51,450 nt of DNA from Patescibacteria group bacterium (GCA_040384765.1 JAZKIQ010000003.1:1-51450), one strand, 5' to 3'. Shown: positions 10,941 to 25,191, counted from the first letter of the stretch. Program-made: numbers and translations. Notes: generated from the letters alone by a model not told the origin.

Positions 10941-11267
10941 TTACGGAAGAGGAAGCATTCCTCCTGTACCAGGCGGGGGGACCGGTGTACCAGGCGGCAG
11001 GATCGGTGCACCCGGCGAGATAACCGGAGCGTGTGCCGGCATCGGACAGAGGATCGCAGCTGACCCACCCACGTCGCACGCCGTCGCGTTCGCGCTTGCT
11101 CCTGCGACCGTCGCAGGGAACCAGCAGCGGATGACCGTTCGCTCGGCCGCGCTAACGCACAGTCCGCAAGAGCGATCGTGCTTCGCCTTCTTCACGCGCT
11201 TGCGAGCGGCGAAGAGGGGGCTGGTCGACACGAGGATGAGGACGAGGCACCAGACGAGCATGCGCAT
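10941..11267 (-). CDS. Secreted Cys-containing orphan protein with Pro-rich tail
   Basis: AAAGGAG SD; signal-peptide-like N-terminus; PG..PPG repeats. Confidence 0.65.
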   Translation of the reverse strand: MRMLVWCLVLILVSTSPLFAARKRVKKAKHDRSCGLCVSAAERTVIRCWFPATVAGASANATACDVGGSAAILCPMPAHAPVISPGAPILPPGTPVPPPGTGGMLPLP

Positions 11268-12063: not shown

Positions 12064-12285
12064 TTATGCACGGTCCTTCTGATCTCGATCTCGCACCAAC
12101 GACTCGAGCTCTGAAAGAGAAACGCATTCCGTAGGCATTGGAATAGCCTCGTAGTCGAATTCCCTTCGGCAGTAGCTCCGCAGAAGATTCATCACATGAC
12201 TCGCCGAAACGGCCTCAATCACCGCGATGATATTCTGCTTCCTACTACCCCAGTTCTGAGTCTGAACAACGAGAAACTGAGCCAT
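12064..12285 (-). CDS. Orphan protein (73 aa)
   Basis: AAAGGAGG SD before MAQFLVVQ. Confidence 0.7.
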   Translation of the reverse strand: MAQFLVVQTQNWGSRKQNIIAVIEAVSASHVMNLLRSYCRREFDYEAIPMPTECVSLSELESLVRDRDQKDRA

Positions 12286-12310: not shown

Positions 12311-12423
12311 GTTGAACCCCAAACTGAATTTTGAACTGCACTACCACTGTCGGTCATACAATACTGCGCGGTGCTAAAAAGCATCGTACGCGCGGACTTT
12401 CAAAATTCAGTTCGGGGTTCAAC
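12311..12423 (-). ncRNA. Repeated structured RNA motif, copy A (family unknown)
   Basis: 25-bp closing stem with core GAACTGAATTTTGAA/TTCAAAATTCAGTT; inner GCGCG-TACGA-hairpin-C-CGCGC; homologous to 14980-15071. Confidence 0.6.
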
Positions 12424-14282: not shown

Positions 14283-14424
14283 GTCGTGCTCCTTGTTTGG
14301 GAAAAGAGCGCGGCAACTTCATGGTACTTCTGCTGCGTCGTGTGCTGCATACTTCTGGCGCAGGTAAGCGCCAACTACTACGGCAACTGCAACTTCTACT
14401 ACCACTACAAAACAACTACTCGCA

Positions 14425-14520
14425 CTAACCCTGGTGCACCACGGCGGCGAAAGCCGTCATGAGCACCGTGGCCACCACCCAGAAGGGCGGCAGCAACTCC
14501 AGCGCTACGATCTTACTCAC
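14425..14520 (-). CDS. Small hydrophobic peptide (~31 aa), start uncertain
   Basis: GAAGGAGGTGA then SKIVALELLPPFWVVATVLMTAFAAVVHQG*; directly 3' of hammerhead 2. Confidence 0.4.
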   Translation of the reverse strand: MSKIVALELLPPFWVVATVLMTAFAAVVHQG

Positions 14521-14538
14521 CTCCTTCAATTTGTTCAA

Positions 14539-14611
14539 GAGCAACTGTTTCGTCCTTTCGGACTCATCAGGCGGAACGTCGTATTGACGTAAATTCCGCG
14601 ACAGGTGGCTC
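14539..14611 (-). ncRNA. Type III hammerhead ribozyme (HHR2)
   Basis: CUGUC^GCGGAA-(UUUA bulge, CGUC/GACG)-UUCCGC-CUGAUGA-GUCC-GAAA-GGAC-GAAA-CAG; complete core, GUC triplet, cleavage predicted between 14600 and 14599. Confidence 0.93.
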
Positions 14612-14639
14612 GCGAGAACCCGAGGGTTCCCGCCAGCCG

Positions 14640-14771
14640 CTACTCTTCCATGAGTTCTTTAATACGATGGTCCCGTCGCTCTCGGGGCGTCATGTTCGCG
14701 AGCCTCCAGAGGCTCACCGACATTTTCACCATTCCGATCGCGAGCGACCCGACCGCGACTACAGCCAGCAT
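14640..14771 (-). CDS. Small TM peptide (43 aa) or frameshifted 3' part of 14759-14941
   Basis: GGAG-N6-ATG; MLAVVAVGSLAIGMVKMSVSLWRLANMTPRERRDHRIKELMEE*. Confidence 0.45.
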   Translation of the reverse strand: MLAVVAVGSLAIGMVKMSVSLWRLANMTPRERRDHRIKELMEE

Positions 14772-14941
14772 GCCATTCTCCGAGCAACCGTCGGGTTGCC
14801 CCAGGTGGTCATGCGCCGCTCACTGCTCTTTTCCCGCTCGACACGCACCAGGTGCGCTTCGAGGGAGATGCGCGCGAGCATCTGTCCACCGAGCCACCCA
14901 AACGCGATCAGTACCGGCGAGAAGATCAGCACGATTGTCAT
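14759..14941 (-). CDS. Small TM orphan protein (60 aa)
   Basis: AAAGGAG-N6-ATG; MTIVLIFSPVLIAFGWLGG hydrophobic start. Confidence 0.6.
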   Translation of the reverse strand: MTIVLIFSPVLIAFGWLGGQMLARISLEAHLVRVEREKSSERRMTTWGNPTVARRMACWL

Positions 14942-14979
14942 CTCAATCTCCTTTGTCAGAAAAACTACAGCTCCCGATG

Positions 14980-15071
14980 CGGAGTCCCGAACTGAATCTT
15001 GAAACCTAACGGCTGCGCAGTGGAAAAATTTCCATCGATATGCGCTATTCAAAACTCAGTTCGAGACTCCG
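14980..15071 (-). ncRNA. Repeated structured RNA motif, copy B (family unknown)
   Basis: 24-bp closing stem with core GAACTGAGTTTTGAA/TTCAAGATTCAGTTC; inner GCGCA-TATCGA-hairpin-C-TGCGC. Confidence 0.6.
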
Positions 15072-15085
15072 TTTTTAATGTTCTT

Positions 15086-15136
15086 CTGCTTTCGCTCTTT
15101 CGAGCTCATCAGTCGGGATACACATCCCGAGAGCAG
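15086..15136 (-). ncRNA. Type III hammerhead ribozyme (HHR1)
   Basis: CUGCUC^UCGGGA-UGUGUA-UCCCGA-CUGAUGA-GCUC-GAAA-GAGC-GAAA-GCAG; all three stems pair; cleavage predicted between 15131 and 15130. Confidence 0.93.
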
Positions 15137-15193
15137 TCGGTATCTATTGGAGACACCGCGAGACTTTATAGAGTTTCTCGATCTCTTTTAGTG

Positions 15194-15766
15194 CTAGTAG
15201 TTAGCGAGCAGCGCGAACGGGGAGGTCCGGTCTTCCTCGATGTGGACATCGCGAACGATGTCCACGAGCGTGAAGTTCCGGTTCTCGACCACCCTGGACG
15301 GGAGCCCCATGAAGGAGCTCTCCCTCCCGGTGGCCGTGTCCCACTCGAGCGTGACTTCGAGGGTTTCGGCATCGACAGTTGCCTGGAACCAGCGACCAGT
15401 GGTCGCAGCACCATCCCAGCGGAGGATGGAAACCGTTCCAGTGGTAAATACATGTGCATTGATCCACCAGCTGCTTGCCGATGAGAAGCCGAGCATCGCT
15501 TGCTCAGCCAACTTCGTGAGTGCCGTCGGCAAGTCCAGCTTCCGGTAGATCGCTTCCCAAAGGGCTTCGTCGTACCGCCCCTGGATCCCCACGCGAAGGA
15601 ACTGGTCCAAACCGAGGCGTACCGCTTCGGCCCCGACACCAATCGCCCTTCCATGGGTAGCGACCCCCGTCTCGATCTCTTCTCCGTCACTGATGACGTC
15701 GAAGAAAGAAGTCGGGAGGCTTGCGAAGCGGACTGCGGACTGGGCACCATTCTGGATTGCGTTCAT
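15194..15766 (-). CDS. Orphan protein (190 aa), first gene of the ribozyme operon
   Basis: GGAG-N7-ATG before MNAIQNG; long open frame. Confidence 0.7.
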   Translation of the reverse strand: MNAIQNGAQSAVRFASLPTSFFDVISDGEEIETGVATHGRAIGVGAEAVRLGLDQFLRVGIQGRYDEALWEAIYRKLDLPTALTKLAEQAMLGFSSASSWWINAHVFTTGTVSILRWDGAATTGRWFQATVDAETLEVTLEWDTATGRESSFMGLPSRVVENRNFTLVDIVRDVHIEEDRTSPFALLANY

Positions 15767-15774
15767 GATCATTC

Positions 15775-16492
15775 TCCGTGGTCGCTCTGCGACCGACAAT
15801 CGAAAAAAGTTTCAAACAATCCTCTATAGCTATGGCGAGGCGAACTACAAACTAGCACTTGGAAATGTACTACCCGGATACCATGTCCGAGAGAAATCTA
15901 GGCAGAAGCGCGAGGATCCAAATTTTAAATAATTGATCTCGGGTCCGCCCAGGTTTCTCTCCTCAATCACACCCGCCACAAGCTTCGCAAGTTGGCGGAT
16001 TATTTTTCGTATACGAAAAATAAAAAGCGATTGAGATCTACCTTTAGAAAAAGATATGCCTCAATCGCTCTTCGATTCGTTGTCCCGAATCAAGGCGAAG
16101 GTTTGGCTCTCTCTTTCCAAAACTTCATATTTAGTTTTCAAATTTCCTACCCCCACTCGAGTAAACGAACTATTTCATTTACTCGATAAGGGGAGGGGGT
16201 CATGAGCGGCGCGCGGCGTTGTGAAAGTCGAATGCGCGCCGAATCACTCCCCCTCGTCGATCGAACAAAGTTGTCGATCCGTCAACCATACTCAGAATTC
16301 AAAGGAACCTCCTCTGTAAAATTCCCTGTACAATACAGTATCCGCGAATCGGCATTTGGTACGGGGGCTTCCCTTCTGGACCCTTAAAGTTTCCTTCAAA
16401 GGTGGAGCGAGCCGTCCTACGCCGCGCGATGTGGGGAGCTGGTCACTAGGTGGGCATCGGTCGCCCATCCCTCAACCTGACCTTATCCCTAC
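15775..16492 (-). ncRNA. ~720-nt hairpin-tiled non-coding leader (putative large structured RNA)
   Basis: No convincing ORF; more than ten consecutive stem-loops; starts just after a strong promoter. Confidence 0.5.
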
Positions 16493-16498
16493 ATGAGT

Positions 16499-16528
16499 AT
16501 AATAGCATACTATTGACTACTTTGTCAA
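16499..16528 (-). promoter_or_regulatory. Sigma70 promoter of the ribozyme operon
   Basis: TTGACA(16523-16528)-N18-TATTAT(16499-16504) with an extended TG. Confidence 0.6.
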
Positions 16529-17511: not shown

Positions 17512-17584
17512 GGTGCGGGATAGGAGAATCGAACTCCTGCCTCAACCTTGGGAAGGTCGCGTCCTACCACTAAACTAATCCCGC
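17511..17584 (-). tRNA. tRNA-Gly(CCC)
   Basis: GCGGGATTAGTTTAGTGGT...GACC-TTCCCAA-GGTT...GTTCGATTC...TCCCGCACCA. Confidence 0.95.
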
Positions 17585-17838
17585 ATATTGTAATTTTCCA
17601 AACGGCGCTTTAAATATCCTCTTCCAAAACCTGTCTTGAGCTGCTTCTCTCTTATTAACGCATCTGTCTTATCTAGACAAGCCTCGTAATACACCAGCAC
17701 AACTGAAGCAAACTTTTTGGTTGTAGTTACTTCTTTTCTTAGGTGCTGAGCCAACCTTTTCTTTAGATCAGAGGTTGATCCGACATACAAAATCTTCTGC
17801 TCAAGATCTCTACATTCAAGTACATAAACATAGTGCAT
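17575..17838 (-). CDS. GIY-YIG nuclease family protein
   Basis: YVYVL...LYVGSTSDLKKRLAQH...LVYYEAC...REKQLKTGFGR. Confidence 0.92.
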   Translation of the reverse strand: MHYVYVLECRDLEQKILYVGSTSDLKKRLAQHLRKEVTTTKKFASVVLVYYEACLDKTDALIREKQLKTGFGRGYLKRRLENYNMRD

Positions 17839-24749: not shown

Positions 24750-24777
24750 AAAGGCCGCCCGTGAGGGCGGCCTTTTC
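24750..24777. terminator. Terminator after RNase P RNA
   Basis: AAAAGGCCGCCC-GTGA-GGGCGGCCTTTT. Confidence 0.8.
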
Positions 24778-24781
24778 ATGT

Positions 24782-25111
24782 ACTGTATCTGTAAGCCGAA
24801 TTCTGTATCCACCGAAATGGACGATAGGCATTTATCTGGGCCTCACATTACTGTGAAGCTCGAGCGGCACTCCCTCCGAAGAGGGCACGGCCTTGCACTG
24901 AAGTAAGGATTTAGCCGTTTCACCCTCGTGTTACCACGAGGACGGTCCACGGGGGACCTCCTAGTCTTTCGACATCGGACGTTTCTGCTCGCACCTCTTG
25001 GATTACTCCAGACGGGTGTTACCCGCTACTCTCGCCACATCAATGAATTGTTGCAGCTCAGTGTTCGGACTTTCCTCTCCTGCTCTCGCAGGAGCACCTA
25101 CCCGACACAGC
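24782..25111 (-). ncRNA. rnpB: RNase P RNA
   Basis: GAGGAAAGTCC near the 5' end, ACAGAATTCGGCTTA near the 3' end, P1 GCTGTGTC/GATACAGT; TTGACT-N16-TATAAT promoter at 25118-25145. Confidence 0.95.
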
Positions 25112-25191
25112 AATACAATTATACCATAACTAACCGATAAGTCAAAAAGAAAAAACCGCCAGATAGCGGTTTTTTCTTTTCTAGCCTCTTT

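What the first reader, a model, noticed from the sequence alone, without database searches (positions are those of the whole stretch)
14600..15130. The two ribozymes would excise a 531-nt coding RNA with ligatable ends
Seen: the cleavage sites at 15131/15130 and 14600/14599 bracket 531 nt containing RNA motif B and two small TM ORFs. Established: 5'-OH plus cyclic-phosphate ends are the substrate of RtcB-type ligases, and tandem hammerheads yield circular RNAs in retrozymes. Inference: a chromosome-encoded circular mRNA is possible. The junction would pair CUGU with AGCAG, a G-G mismatch next to the core, so a circle would probably not re-cleave efficiently.
Basis: inference. Interest (0 to 1): 0.7.

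Follow-up and report, generated by a model that had tools for sequence, protein, structure and literature searches.

The report
Tandem hammerheads cutting out a small mRNA
Two real self-cleaving hammerhead ribozymes in a tiny bacterial genome should cut a 531-base messenger for two small membrane proteins out of a longer transcript, but nothing indicates that this piece is then closed into a circle.

Summary
Observation confirmed. Two canonical type III hammerheads lie on the minus strand. They cut at 15131|15130 and 14600|14599, so they bracket exactly 531 nt. That stretch holds the remnant of hammerhead 1, a 96-nt hairpin, and two overlapping small ORFs that each have a Shine-Dalgarno site.

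Circle idea not supported:
- The genome (99.8% complete) has no RtcB, no Rnl-type ligase and no RtcA. It has one LigT-like 2H protein.
- RtcB is found in 4 of 151 genomes of the order, none of them among the 31 with hammerheads.
- The circle junction would leave 1 bp of helix III, so ribozyme-catalysed ligation is out.
- No RNA run holds the locus, so junction reads could not be sought.

Wider pattern: this hammerhead subtype is common in Patescibacteria-type genomes. It occurs alone (19 of 31 positive genomes) or in same-strand arrays 270-1100 nt apart, between unrelated ORFan genes. A hairpin usually abuts helix III.

Best reading: co-transcriptional punctuation of an operon into discrete linear mRNAs. 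Each would start with a 5'-OH and the ribozyme fold and end with a hairpin and a cyclic phosphate. Clustered bacterial hammerheads and the circle idea were published in 2011, and circles were not detected. This is a new member of a known kind, in a lineage where I found no report.

The parts
16499..16528 (-). Promoter-like site (TTGACA-18 nt-TATTAT, TG before the second hexamer). Possible start of the transcript that runs through both ribozymes.
   Evidence: 11 of 12 consensus matches. It was the only site found; shuffles give a mean of 1.7, so this is a weak inference.
15194..15799 (-). Upstream ORFan gene (201 aa), ending 58 nt before the hammerhead 1 cut.
   Evidence: No Pfam, PHROGs or NCBIfam family.
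15138..15158 (-). 8-bp hairpin that ends 1 nt before helix III of hammerhead 1. It would become the 3'-terminal hairpin of the upstream cleavage product.
   Evidence: -10.4 kcal/mol; part of the minimum-energy fold.
15086..15136 (-). Hammerhead 1, type III. C17 = 15131; cut at 15131|15130; cleavage triplet CUC.
   Evidence: No listed difference inside it in a strain about 90% identical.
14978..15073 (-). Long 5'-leader hairpin ('motif B'): a stem of about 23 bp with G-U pairs that work only on this strand.
   Evidence: Related copies lie at window 12311-12423, G000:C4:32089-32174 and in G002, each upstream of a Shine-Dalgarno site and a different gene. The base pair C15071-G14980 reads U-A in the variant strain.
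14759..14941 (-). ORF1, 60 aa: one hydrophobic N-terminal segment and a charged tail. AAGGAG lies 6 nt before the ATG.
   Evidence: In the variant strain 8 codons differ: 6 synonymous, plus I3V and A13M. No homologue except itself.
14640..14771 (-). ORF2, 43 aa: hydrophobic N-terminal segment. GGAG lies 6 nt before the ATG. It overlaps the end of ORF1 by 13 nt.
   Evidence: No family.
14607..14638 (-). Strong hairpin (-27.4 kcal/mol in its 40-nt window) that ends 2 nt before helix III of hammerhead 2. It would become the 3'-terminal hairpin of the 531-nt RNA.
14542..14607 (-). Hammerhead 2, type III. C17 = 14600; cut at 14600|14599; cleavage triplet GUC; enlarged helix I (29-nt insert).
14425..14544 (-). 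Possible third small hydrophobic ORF just after hammerhead 2. AAGGAGG lies at 14526..14520. The start codon is uncertain: no ATG, with in-frame GTG, ATC or TTG as candidates.
   Evidence: No family. That it is coding is not shown.

Best explanation
The two hammerheads are cis-acting processing sites in one minus-strand transcript of an ORFan gene cluster.

Proposed sequence of events:
1. As the RNA is made, each ribozyme folds and cuts itself. A hairpin abutting its short helix III helps the fold.
2. Hammerhead 1 detaches the upstream 201-aa gene's mRNA.
3. Hammerhead 2 detaches the downstream part.
4. The middle product is a linear 531-nt bicistronic mRNA for two small membrane peptides.

The 5' end of that mRNA is a hydroxyl on the first base of helix I, so it starts with a terminal stem-loop, followed by the long leader hairpin. 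Its 3' end is a strong hairpin, a 7-nt tail and a 2',3'-cyclic phosphate.

The likely purpose is to uncouple the stability and translation of neighbouring cistrons. This is operon punctuation or insulation, as proposed for clustered prophage hammerheads and as exploited by synthetic ribozyme insulators (the latter recalled, from no call here).

Shown here (computationally): the ribozymes, their conservation, the flanking hairpins, and that ORF1 behaves as a coding sequence.
Inferred: cleavage in vivo, a single transcript, and the effect on stability or translation.
For: Ribozymes:
- Perfect cores and helices. There are 2 core-pattern hits against 0 expected.
- The clade pattern hits at least 120 stretches, almost all in Patescibacteria-type assemblies.
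- In 90 distinct pattern-only hits, helix I has at least 5 bp in 100% (1.7% when shuffled). Helix II pairs in 97% (1.3% when shuffled).
- On 59 aligned hammerheads, 97.5% of cells are paired, 13 of 16 pairs change on both sides, and 0 of 500 shuffles reach the covariation score.

Position relative to genes:
- RF00008 matches occur in 31 of 151 genomes of the order. 19 of those have a single match and 11 have same-strand neighbours.
- 52 of 85 locus-strands have one hammerhead and 33 have two to five, with spacing mostly 270-1140 nt.
- A Shine-Dalgarno site, start codon and ORF follow within 60 nt in 31% of hammerheads, against 16% of random points.
- The flanked genes are unrelated ORFans.

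Hairpin module:
- The 40 nt upstream of helix III fold to a mean of -11.2 kcal/mol, against -7.5 in control windows (n = 127, p about 3e-8).
- A hairpin of -8 kcal/mol or stronger ends within 2 nt of helix III in 67 of 127 hammerheads, against 28 of 127 controls.
- Both window ribozymes have such a hairpin.

Selection:
- In contigs of a strain about 90% identical, no listed change falls in hammerhead 1 or inside the leader hairpin. One stem pair changes on both sides.
- ORF1 changes are mostly synonymous.

RNA decay enzymes: RNase Y, two beta-CASP (RNase J-like) proteins, RNase R/II and RNase III are present, and RNase E/G is not found.

Literature: processing of polycistronic RNAs is the role proposed for such hammerheads (PMC3088659 and PMC6765202, passages read).
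Against: - No RNA data exist for this organism here, so cleavage, transcript extent and product fate are all untested.
- With flanks, hammerhead 2's minimum-energy fold does not show the 4-bp helix III. It shows a competing longer closing helix instead.
- Hammerhead 1 uses a CUC triplet, which by recall is cleaved less well than GUC.
- In Bacillus the 5'-OH left by the glmS ribozyme is a signal for RNase J1 decay (recalled). Cleavage could therefore destabilise the downstream mRNA rather than protect it.
- The Shine-Dalgarno distance statistic rests on a crude ORF heuristic. Half the hammerheads have no gene start within 95 nt.
- The alignment for one search came from a descriptor that demands pairing. 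Only one search is free of that bias.
Confidence: 0.6

Rival explanations
1. Circular mRNA. After double cleavage, a ligase joins the 5'-OH to the 2',3'-cyclic phosphate, giving a 531-nt covalently closed coding RNA.
For: - The ends have the right chemistry (established for hammerheads).
- One 2H-family (LigT-like, PF13563) protein is encoded at G000:C1:82-489. By recall, enzymes of this family can join such ends in vitro through a 2'-5' bond.
- In relatives, about 80% of adjacent hammerheads share helix III (17 of 21 and 40 of 50 pairs have at least 4 bp in trans). There, an excised unit could in principle re-form a nicked hammerhead and self-ligate.
- The excised RNA is very structured (z = -7.9).
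Against: - RtcB, Rnl-type RNA ligase and RtcA were not found in a 99.8%-complete genome.
- RtcB occurs in 4 of 151 genomes of the order and in 0 of the 31 with hammerheads.
- In this window the junction leaves 1 bp of helix III, so ribozyme-catalysed ligation is excluded.
- Where helix III deviates, it is compensated in cis and not with the neighbour. Trans compatibility of neighbours (81%, 80%) equals that of random hammerhead pairs (85%, 81%).
- The ends are not paired with each other in the predicted fold.
- Most hammerheads of the clade are solitary.
- Circles were sought and not detected for three bacterial tandem arrangements (PMC3088659, passage).
Confidence: 0.06
2. Constitutive down-regulation. 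Self-cleavage exposes a 5'-OH that RNase J-type enzymes attack, as with glmS in Bacillus. The ribozymes would then limit expression of the genes downstream of them rather than stabilise them.
For: - Two beta-CASP/RMMBL proteins and RNase Y are encoded, and RNase E/G is not found, so this is Bacillus-type decay machinery.
- The flanked genes are accessory ORFans, some of them small hydrophobic peptides that could be harmful if over-made.
Against: - The downstream product begins directly with the 7-bp helix I. By recall, a 5'-terminal stem-loop blocks 5' exonucleases.
- A second long hairpin follows.
- The conserved hairpin on the upstream side points to protection of products rather than their disposal.
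Confidence: 0.17
3. Baggage of a mobile or viral element. The hammerheads belong to an integrated element (the prophage context of the 2011 report) and serve its own RNA processing, or they mark cassette boundaries, with no role for the host.
For: - The ORFan stretch 10.1-16.5 kb lies between tRNA-Phe and tRNA-Arg genes and is flanked by housekeeping genes.
- Its GC content is slightly higher, 0.548 against 0.517 for the genome.
- Gene content between hammerheads varies from genome to genome, and neighbouring hammerheads are sometimes identical.
Against: - There is no integrase, no PHROGs function and no att-like direct repeat at the tRNAs.
- No contig joins across the unit in three DNA runs.
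- The core is invariant in 59 of 59 aligned copies, so RNA catalysis itself is selected whatever the carrier.
- This reading does not exclude the processing mechanism.
Confidence: 0.12

Closest known systems
Clustered hammerhead ribozymes flanking genes in bacterial and prophage DNA (Perreault et al. 2011, PMC3088659; passages read)
   Same: - Several same-strand hammerheads flank single genes or short gene blocks of variable, mostly unknown function.
- The proposed role is processing of polycistronic RNA.
- Circular or spliced products were considered there too.
   Different: - The host here is a genome of about 0.8 Mb, probably Patescibacteria.
- No phage genes are recognisable.
- All copies are a compact type III subtype: 7-bp helix I, 4-bp helix II, CUGUC/ACAG helix III.
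- Rfam's threshold misses this subtype; 1 of 57 matches passes it.
- A hairpin abuts helix III. I did not see this described in the passages read.
Retrozymes and viroid-like circular RNAs with hammerheads (PMC5680766, abstract in listing; PMC7761336, passages read)
   Same: Type III hammerheads in tandem on one strand release a unit a few hundred nucleotides long, with a 5'-OH and a cyclic phosphate.
   Different: - In those elements the two ribozymes are copies within direct repeats, so the junction regenerates a hammerhead.
- Their RNA is non-coding, and circles are observed.
- Here the two ribozymes differ in all three helices, the junction keeps 1 bp, the unit codes for peptides, and no circle has been looked at.
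glmS ribozyme and synthetic ribozyme insulators such as RiboJ (both recalled, from no call here)
   Same: A self-cleaving RNA in a 5' leader sets the mRNA's 5' end to a hydroxyl and changes its stability or its independence from the upstream sequence.
   Different: glmS depends on a metabolite and triggers decay. RiboJ is engineered. Here cleavage is presumably constitutive and its direction of effect is unknown.

Membership tests
Hammerhead ribozyme, type III (Rfam RF00008) | Conserved core: C3-U4-G5-A6-N7-G8-A9 and G12-A13-A14 | tested here: met
   Both copies carry CUGAUGA and GAA(A).
Hammerhead ribozyme, type III (Rfam RF00008) | Three helices around the core, with helices I and II closed by loops and helix III open. 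A15.1-U16.1 pair. Cleavage triplet NUH. | tested here: met
   HH1 has helices of 7, 4 and 5 bp and triplet CUC. HH2 has 7, 4 and 4 bp and triplet GUC. Clade covariation supports the helices.
Hammerhead ribozyme, type III (Rfam RF00008) | Score at or above Rfam's gathering threshold (48.5 bits) | tested here: not met
   The scores are 45.8 and 32-34 bits. The whole subtype scores low, with 1 of 57 matches in the order passing. This looks like a limit of the model rather than a missing feature of the RNA.
Hammerhead ribozyme, type III (Rfam RF00008) | Self-cleavage activity | not testable with these tools
   Needs in vitro transcription or end-specific RNA sequencing.
Retrozyme or viroid-like circular RNA | The flanking ribozymes are repeats, so the ligated junction regenerates a hammerhead | tested here: not met
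   The two ribozymes differ in helices I, II and III. The junction's helix III has 1 bp.
Retrozyme or viroid-like circular RNA | A circular RNA form is detected | not testable with these tools
   No RNA run holds the stretch.
RtcB-dependent RNA ligation | RtcB is encoded in the genome | tested here: not met
   PF01139 gives no match in G000 (99.83% complete), while the control rings in 10 of 14 genomes. In the order, 4 of 151 genomes have it, none of them hammerhead-positive.
Clustered prophage hammerheads (Perreault 2011) | Two or more same-strand hammerheads flanking a gene or short gene block | tested here: met
   The 531-nt interval holds two ORFs. The same layout occurs in 11 of 31 positive genomes of the order.
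Clustered prophage hammerheads (Perreault 2011) | Prophage or integrase neighbourhood | tested here: not met
   No integrase or phage function was found within 9.3-16.5 kb by Pfam, PHROGs or NCBIfam.

The most novel reading that the evidence does not exclude
In Patescibacteria-type genomes, hairpin-plus-hammerhead modules may form a lineage-wide punctuation system for accessory operons.

About 80% of neighbouring hammerheads share the same helix III. Units excised from such arrays could therefore re-anneal their own ends into a nicked hammerhead and close into circular mRNAs with no protein ligase.

This window's unit has a mismatched junction. It would be either the linear exception or would need the LigT-like 2H enzyme.
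Probability: 0.06. Interest if true: 0.8.

Novelty: new member of a known kind. Interest (0 to 1): 0.38.

Why it matters
The biological role of bacterial hammerheads is still open. The 2019 review (PMC6765202, passage read) says more work is needed to define their purpose.

What this locus and its relatives offer:
- A compact and very regular case: hairpin, ribozyme, leader, Shine-Dalgarno site, small gene, repeated along operons.
- It occurs in bacteria with minimal genomes and a Bacillus-type set of RNases.
- That makes the 'ribozyme punctuation' idea directly testable with short constructs.
- Standard Rfam thresholds miss almost all of these ribozymes, so their abundance in this radiation is probably unrecorded.

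Literature checks: a search for 'hammerhead ribozyme' with 'Patescibacteria' found 0 papers. 'Hammerhead' with 'candidate phyla radiation' found 3 papers whose titles and abstracts do not concern such ribozymes.

For the specific claim of a chromosome-encoded circular mRNA, the result is negative as far as sequence analysis can go.

Tried and rejected
- **RNA evidence.** No RNA holder was listed for 14300-15400, so junction reads, transcript ends and expression could not be examined.
- **DNA contigs of three runs**. They showed no joint across the unit and no piece spanning the whole stretch. Only part of the difference table is shown (66 rows hidden), so 'no change in hammerhead 1' rests on the listed rows. 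It also rests on one 317-nt contig for which 10 of its 11 substitutions are listed.
- **ORF1 homologues.** Only the window's own protein was found among proteins of 33-105 aa. Longer and shorter lengths were not searched.
- **Protein families.** Pfam, NCBIfam and PHROGs gave nothing for the three small ORFs or their ORFan neighbours.
- **Nucleotide search of 60 relatives.** It found the ribozymes and the leader hairpin but not the ORFs.
- **Metagenome scan with one arm of the leader hairpin.** One hit, carrying that arm only and no hairpin, judged to be chance.
- **att-like repeats at the flanking tRNA genes.** None convincing.
- **The 30-nt circle junction as DNA in the genome.** 0 occurrences, so there is no tandem DNA copy.
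- **Splicing-out of the unit, with the two flanks joined.** Rejected, because the flanks' helix III strands are also non-complementary (CUGCU with ACAG).
- **Integron-like cassette boundary.** Rejected as the main reading, because the catalytic core is invariant in 59 of 59 copies.
- **Supplements of PMC3088659.** Its figures S1-S3 and lists of hammerheads could not be seen. They may already list examples from such genomes.

Full report
**1. What is there**

On the minus strand the window carries two textbook type III hammerheads.

- Hammerhead 1 (15136..15086) reads CUGCU-C | helix I (7 bp, loop GUGU) - CUGAUGA - helix II (4 bp, loop GAAA) - GAA - AGCAG.
- Hammerhead 2 (14604..14545) reads CUGU-C | helix I (within a 29-nt insert) - CUGAUGA - helix II (4 bp, loop GAAA) - GAA - ACAG.
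- The scissile bonds are 15131|15130 and 14600|14599, so the interval is exactly 531 nt.
- Rfam's model scores them 32-34 and 45.8 bits. Both are under its 48.5-bit threshold, with genome-wide E-values of 5.6e-6 and 2.3e-9.
- The core pattern occurs twice in the window and never in 100 shuffles.
- A descriptor scan of all 12 contigs of the 822,710-bp genome finds no other compact hammerhead.
- With flanks, the minimum-energy fold of hammerhead 1 is exactly 'hairpin plus three-way junction'. Hammerhead 2's fold keeps helices I and II but replaces the 4-bp helix III with a competing outer helix.

**2. What the 531 nt contain**

In order, the unit holds:
- the body of hammerhead 1;
- a 96-nt hairpin (15073..14978, a stem of about 23 bp);
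- AAGGAG, then six bases, then the ATG of ORF1 (60 aa);
- ORF2 (43 aa), with its own GGAG and a 13-nt overlap with ORF1;
- a strong hairpin (14638..14607) that ends two bases before helix III of hammerhead 2.

Both peptides begin with a hydrophobic stretch. Neither matches any family, and ORF1 has no homologue but itself.

Contigs of a strain about 90% identical, from two other runs of the same study, bear on selection.
- Eight ORF1 codons differ: six are synonymous and two are conservative (I3V, A13M). ORF1 therefore behaves as a coding sequence.
- No listed difference lies in hammerhead 1 or in the interior of the hairpin.
- The hairpin's closing pair C15071-G14980 becomes U-A.
- The difference table is truncated. 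For one 317-nt contig, however, 10 of its 11 substitutions are listed.

**3. The wider family**

- RF00008 finds matches in 31 of 151 genomes of the same order, 57 matches in all, of which only one is above Rfam's threshold.
- 19 of the 31 genomes have a single match. 11 have same-strand neighbours a few hundred bases apart.
Nearly all carry Patescibacteria, Paceibacterota, Parcubacteria-group or 'Saccharibacteria' labels.
- This, together with the 0.82-Mb genome size, is why I take the host to be a member of that radiation. That is an inference.
- In the 80 loci returned, 52 of 85 locus-strands have one hammerhead and 33 have two to five. Spacings are mostly 270-1140 nt, so 531 nt is typical.
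- Pattern-only hits, for which no pairing was demanded, show helix I of at least 5 bp in 90 of 90 distinct inserts (1.7% in shuffles) and helix II pairing in 97% (1.3% in shuffles).
- A gapless alignment of 59 copies has 97.5% of cells paired, 13 of 16 pairs changed on both sides, and an invariant core. That set was chosen by a descriptor that requires pairing.
- Genes between and after the ribozymes are unrelated ORFans. The few exceptions include a Ro60/TROVE protein in two genomes and an AAA_28 ATPase.

**4. A feature beyond the ribozyme**

A hairpin abuts the 5' strand of helix III.
- The 40 nt upstream fold to a mean of -11.2 kcal/mol, against -7.5 for windows 80 or 150 nt further up (n = 127; Wilcoxon p about 3e-8 and 2e-7).
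- A terminal hairpin of -8 kcal/mol or stronger ends within 0-2 nt of helix III in 67 of 127 cases, against 28 of 127 controls.
- Both window ribozymes have one.
- On the other side, a Shine-Dalgarno site with a start codon and an ORF of at least 40 aa follows within 60 nt in 31% of hammerheads, against 16% of random points. This rests on a crude heuristic.
- In the window, and in a same-family genome (G002), hammerhead 1 is followed by the long hairpin.
- Related hairpins also stand in front of other genes without a ribozyme: window 12311-12423, G000:C4 and G002:C122.

**5. The circle question**

*Ligases.*
- RtcB, Rnl-type ligase and RtcA are not found in this 99.83%-complete genome.
- A LigT-like 2H protein is present.
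- RtcB occurs in 4 of 151 genomes of the order, none of them hammerhead-positive.

*Self-ligation.*
- It needs the junction to re-form helix III.
- Across the clade, 17 of 21 and 40 of 50 adjacent pairs are compatible in trans (at least 4 bp).
- That equals the rate for random pairs of hammerheads (85%, 81%), so it reflects the clade-wide CUGU/ACAG helix and not selection on junctions.
- In the 4 and 10 pairs with a deviating helix III, the change is compensated within the same ribozyme and not with its neighbour.

*Other points.*
- The predicted fold of the 531-nt RNA (-240.5 kcal/mol, z = -7.9) does not bring the ends together.
- Solitary hammerheads are in the majority and cannot excise anything.
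- Perreault et al. 2011 described clustered bacterial hammerheads and proposed processing into gene-length mRNAs. They mentioned circular or spliced products and did not detect them (PMC3088659, passages).
- The 2019 review repeats the processing idea as unproven (PMC6765202, passage).

**6. Mechanism proposed**

A promoter-like site at 16528..16499 (weak evidence) could drive one transcript through the 201-aa gene, both ribozymes and the genes beyond them. Each hairpin-ribozyme module would cut as it is made.

- The upstream product ends in a hairpin, a tail of 5-8 nt and a cyclic phosphate.
- The downstream product starts with a hydroxyl directly on the first pair of helix I.
- The genome encodes RNase Y, two RNase J-like beta-CASP proteins, RNase R/II and RNase III, but no RNase E/G.
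- By recalled knowledge, 3' hairpins and 3' phosphates hinder 3' exonucleases, and 5'-terminal stem-loops hinder RNase J. But a bare 5'-OH is a decay signal in the glmS case.
- Whether cleavage raises or lowers expression of ORF1/ORF2 is therefore open.
- The long leader hairpin is a plausible RNase III substrate. This is a speculation.

**7. Verdict**

- The excised, end-modified 531-nt coding RNA is a sound inference.
- The circular mRNA is unsupported and less likely here than in most related arrays.
- This is a new member of a known kind (clustered bacterial hammerheads) in a lineage for which I found no report. The conserved abutting hairpin is a modest new detail.

Noticed in passing
window 12311-12423 (minus strand), upstream of the 73-aa ORF 12285..12064: A second long hairpin, with 25-nt arms 96% complementary, whose arms resemble those of the 15073..14978 hairpin. 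Together with the copies at G000:C4:32089-32174 and G002:C122 it forms a small family of 5'-leader hairpins placed before Shine-Dalgarno sites of unrelated genes.
   Followed up: partly
L015 (G000:C4) about 1400-1500 and L018 (G002:C122) about 1590-1530: The C4 and G002 hairpin copies share a further conserved stretch of about 80 nt upstream of the hairpin. In the window, hammerhead 1 stands in that position instead.
   Followed up: no
L057:2402-4243 (G011) and its homologue in L058 (G109): A Ro60/TROVE plus vWA protein (614 aa; 64% identical between the two genomes) starts about 100 nt after a hammerhead in G011. In other bacteria Ro60 genes sit in RNA-repair operons (recalled).
   Followed up: no
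order-wide: Only 1 of 57 hammerhead matches in 151 genomes reaches Rfam's gathering score. Standard annotation would miss this subtype almost entirely.
   Followed up: partly
window 24776-25113 (minus strand): The RNase P RNA scores 114.9 bits, just above the threshold of 100, with several helices shortened or missing in the alignment.
   Followed up: no
window 17575-17838 (minus strand): A stand-alone 87-aa GIY-YIG protein lies immediately beside tRNA-Gly, followed by SET-domain and RNHCP-domain proteins.
   Followed up: no
window 14538-14645 (minus strand): Seven bases around ORF2's stop codon can pair with seven bases just after hammerhead 2. This would enclose the hairpin and the ribozyme in one domain and could hold the two cleavage products together.
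   Followed up: no
window 10965-11006: Two tandem 21-nt units, 86% alike, inside the ORFan block.
   Followed up: no
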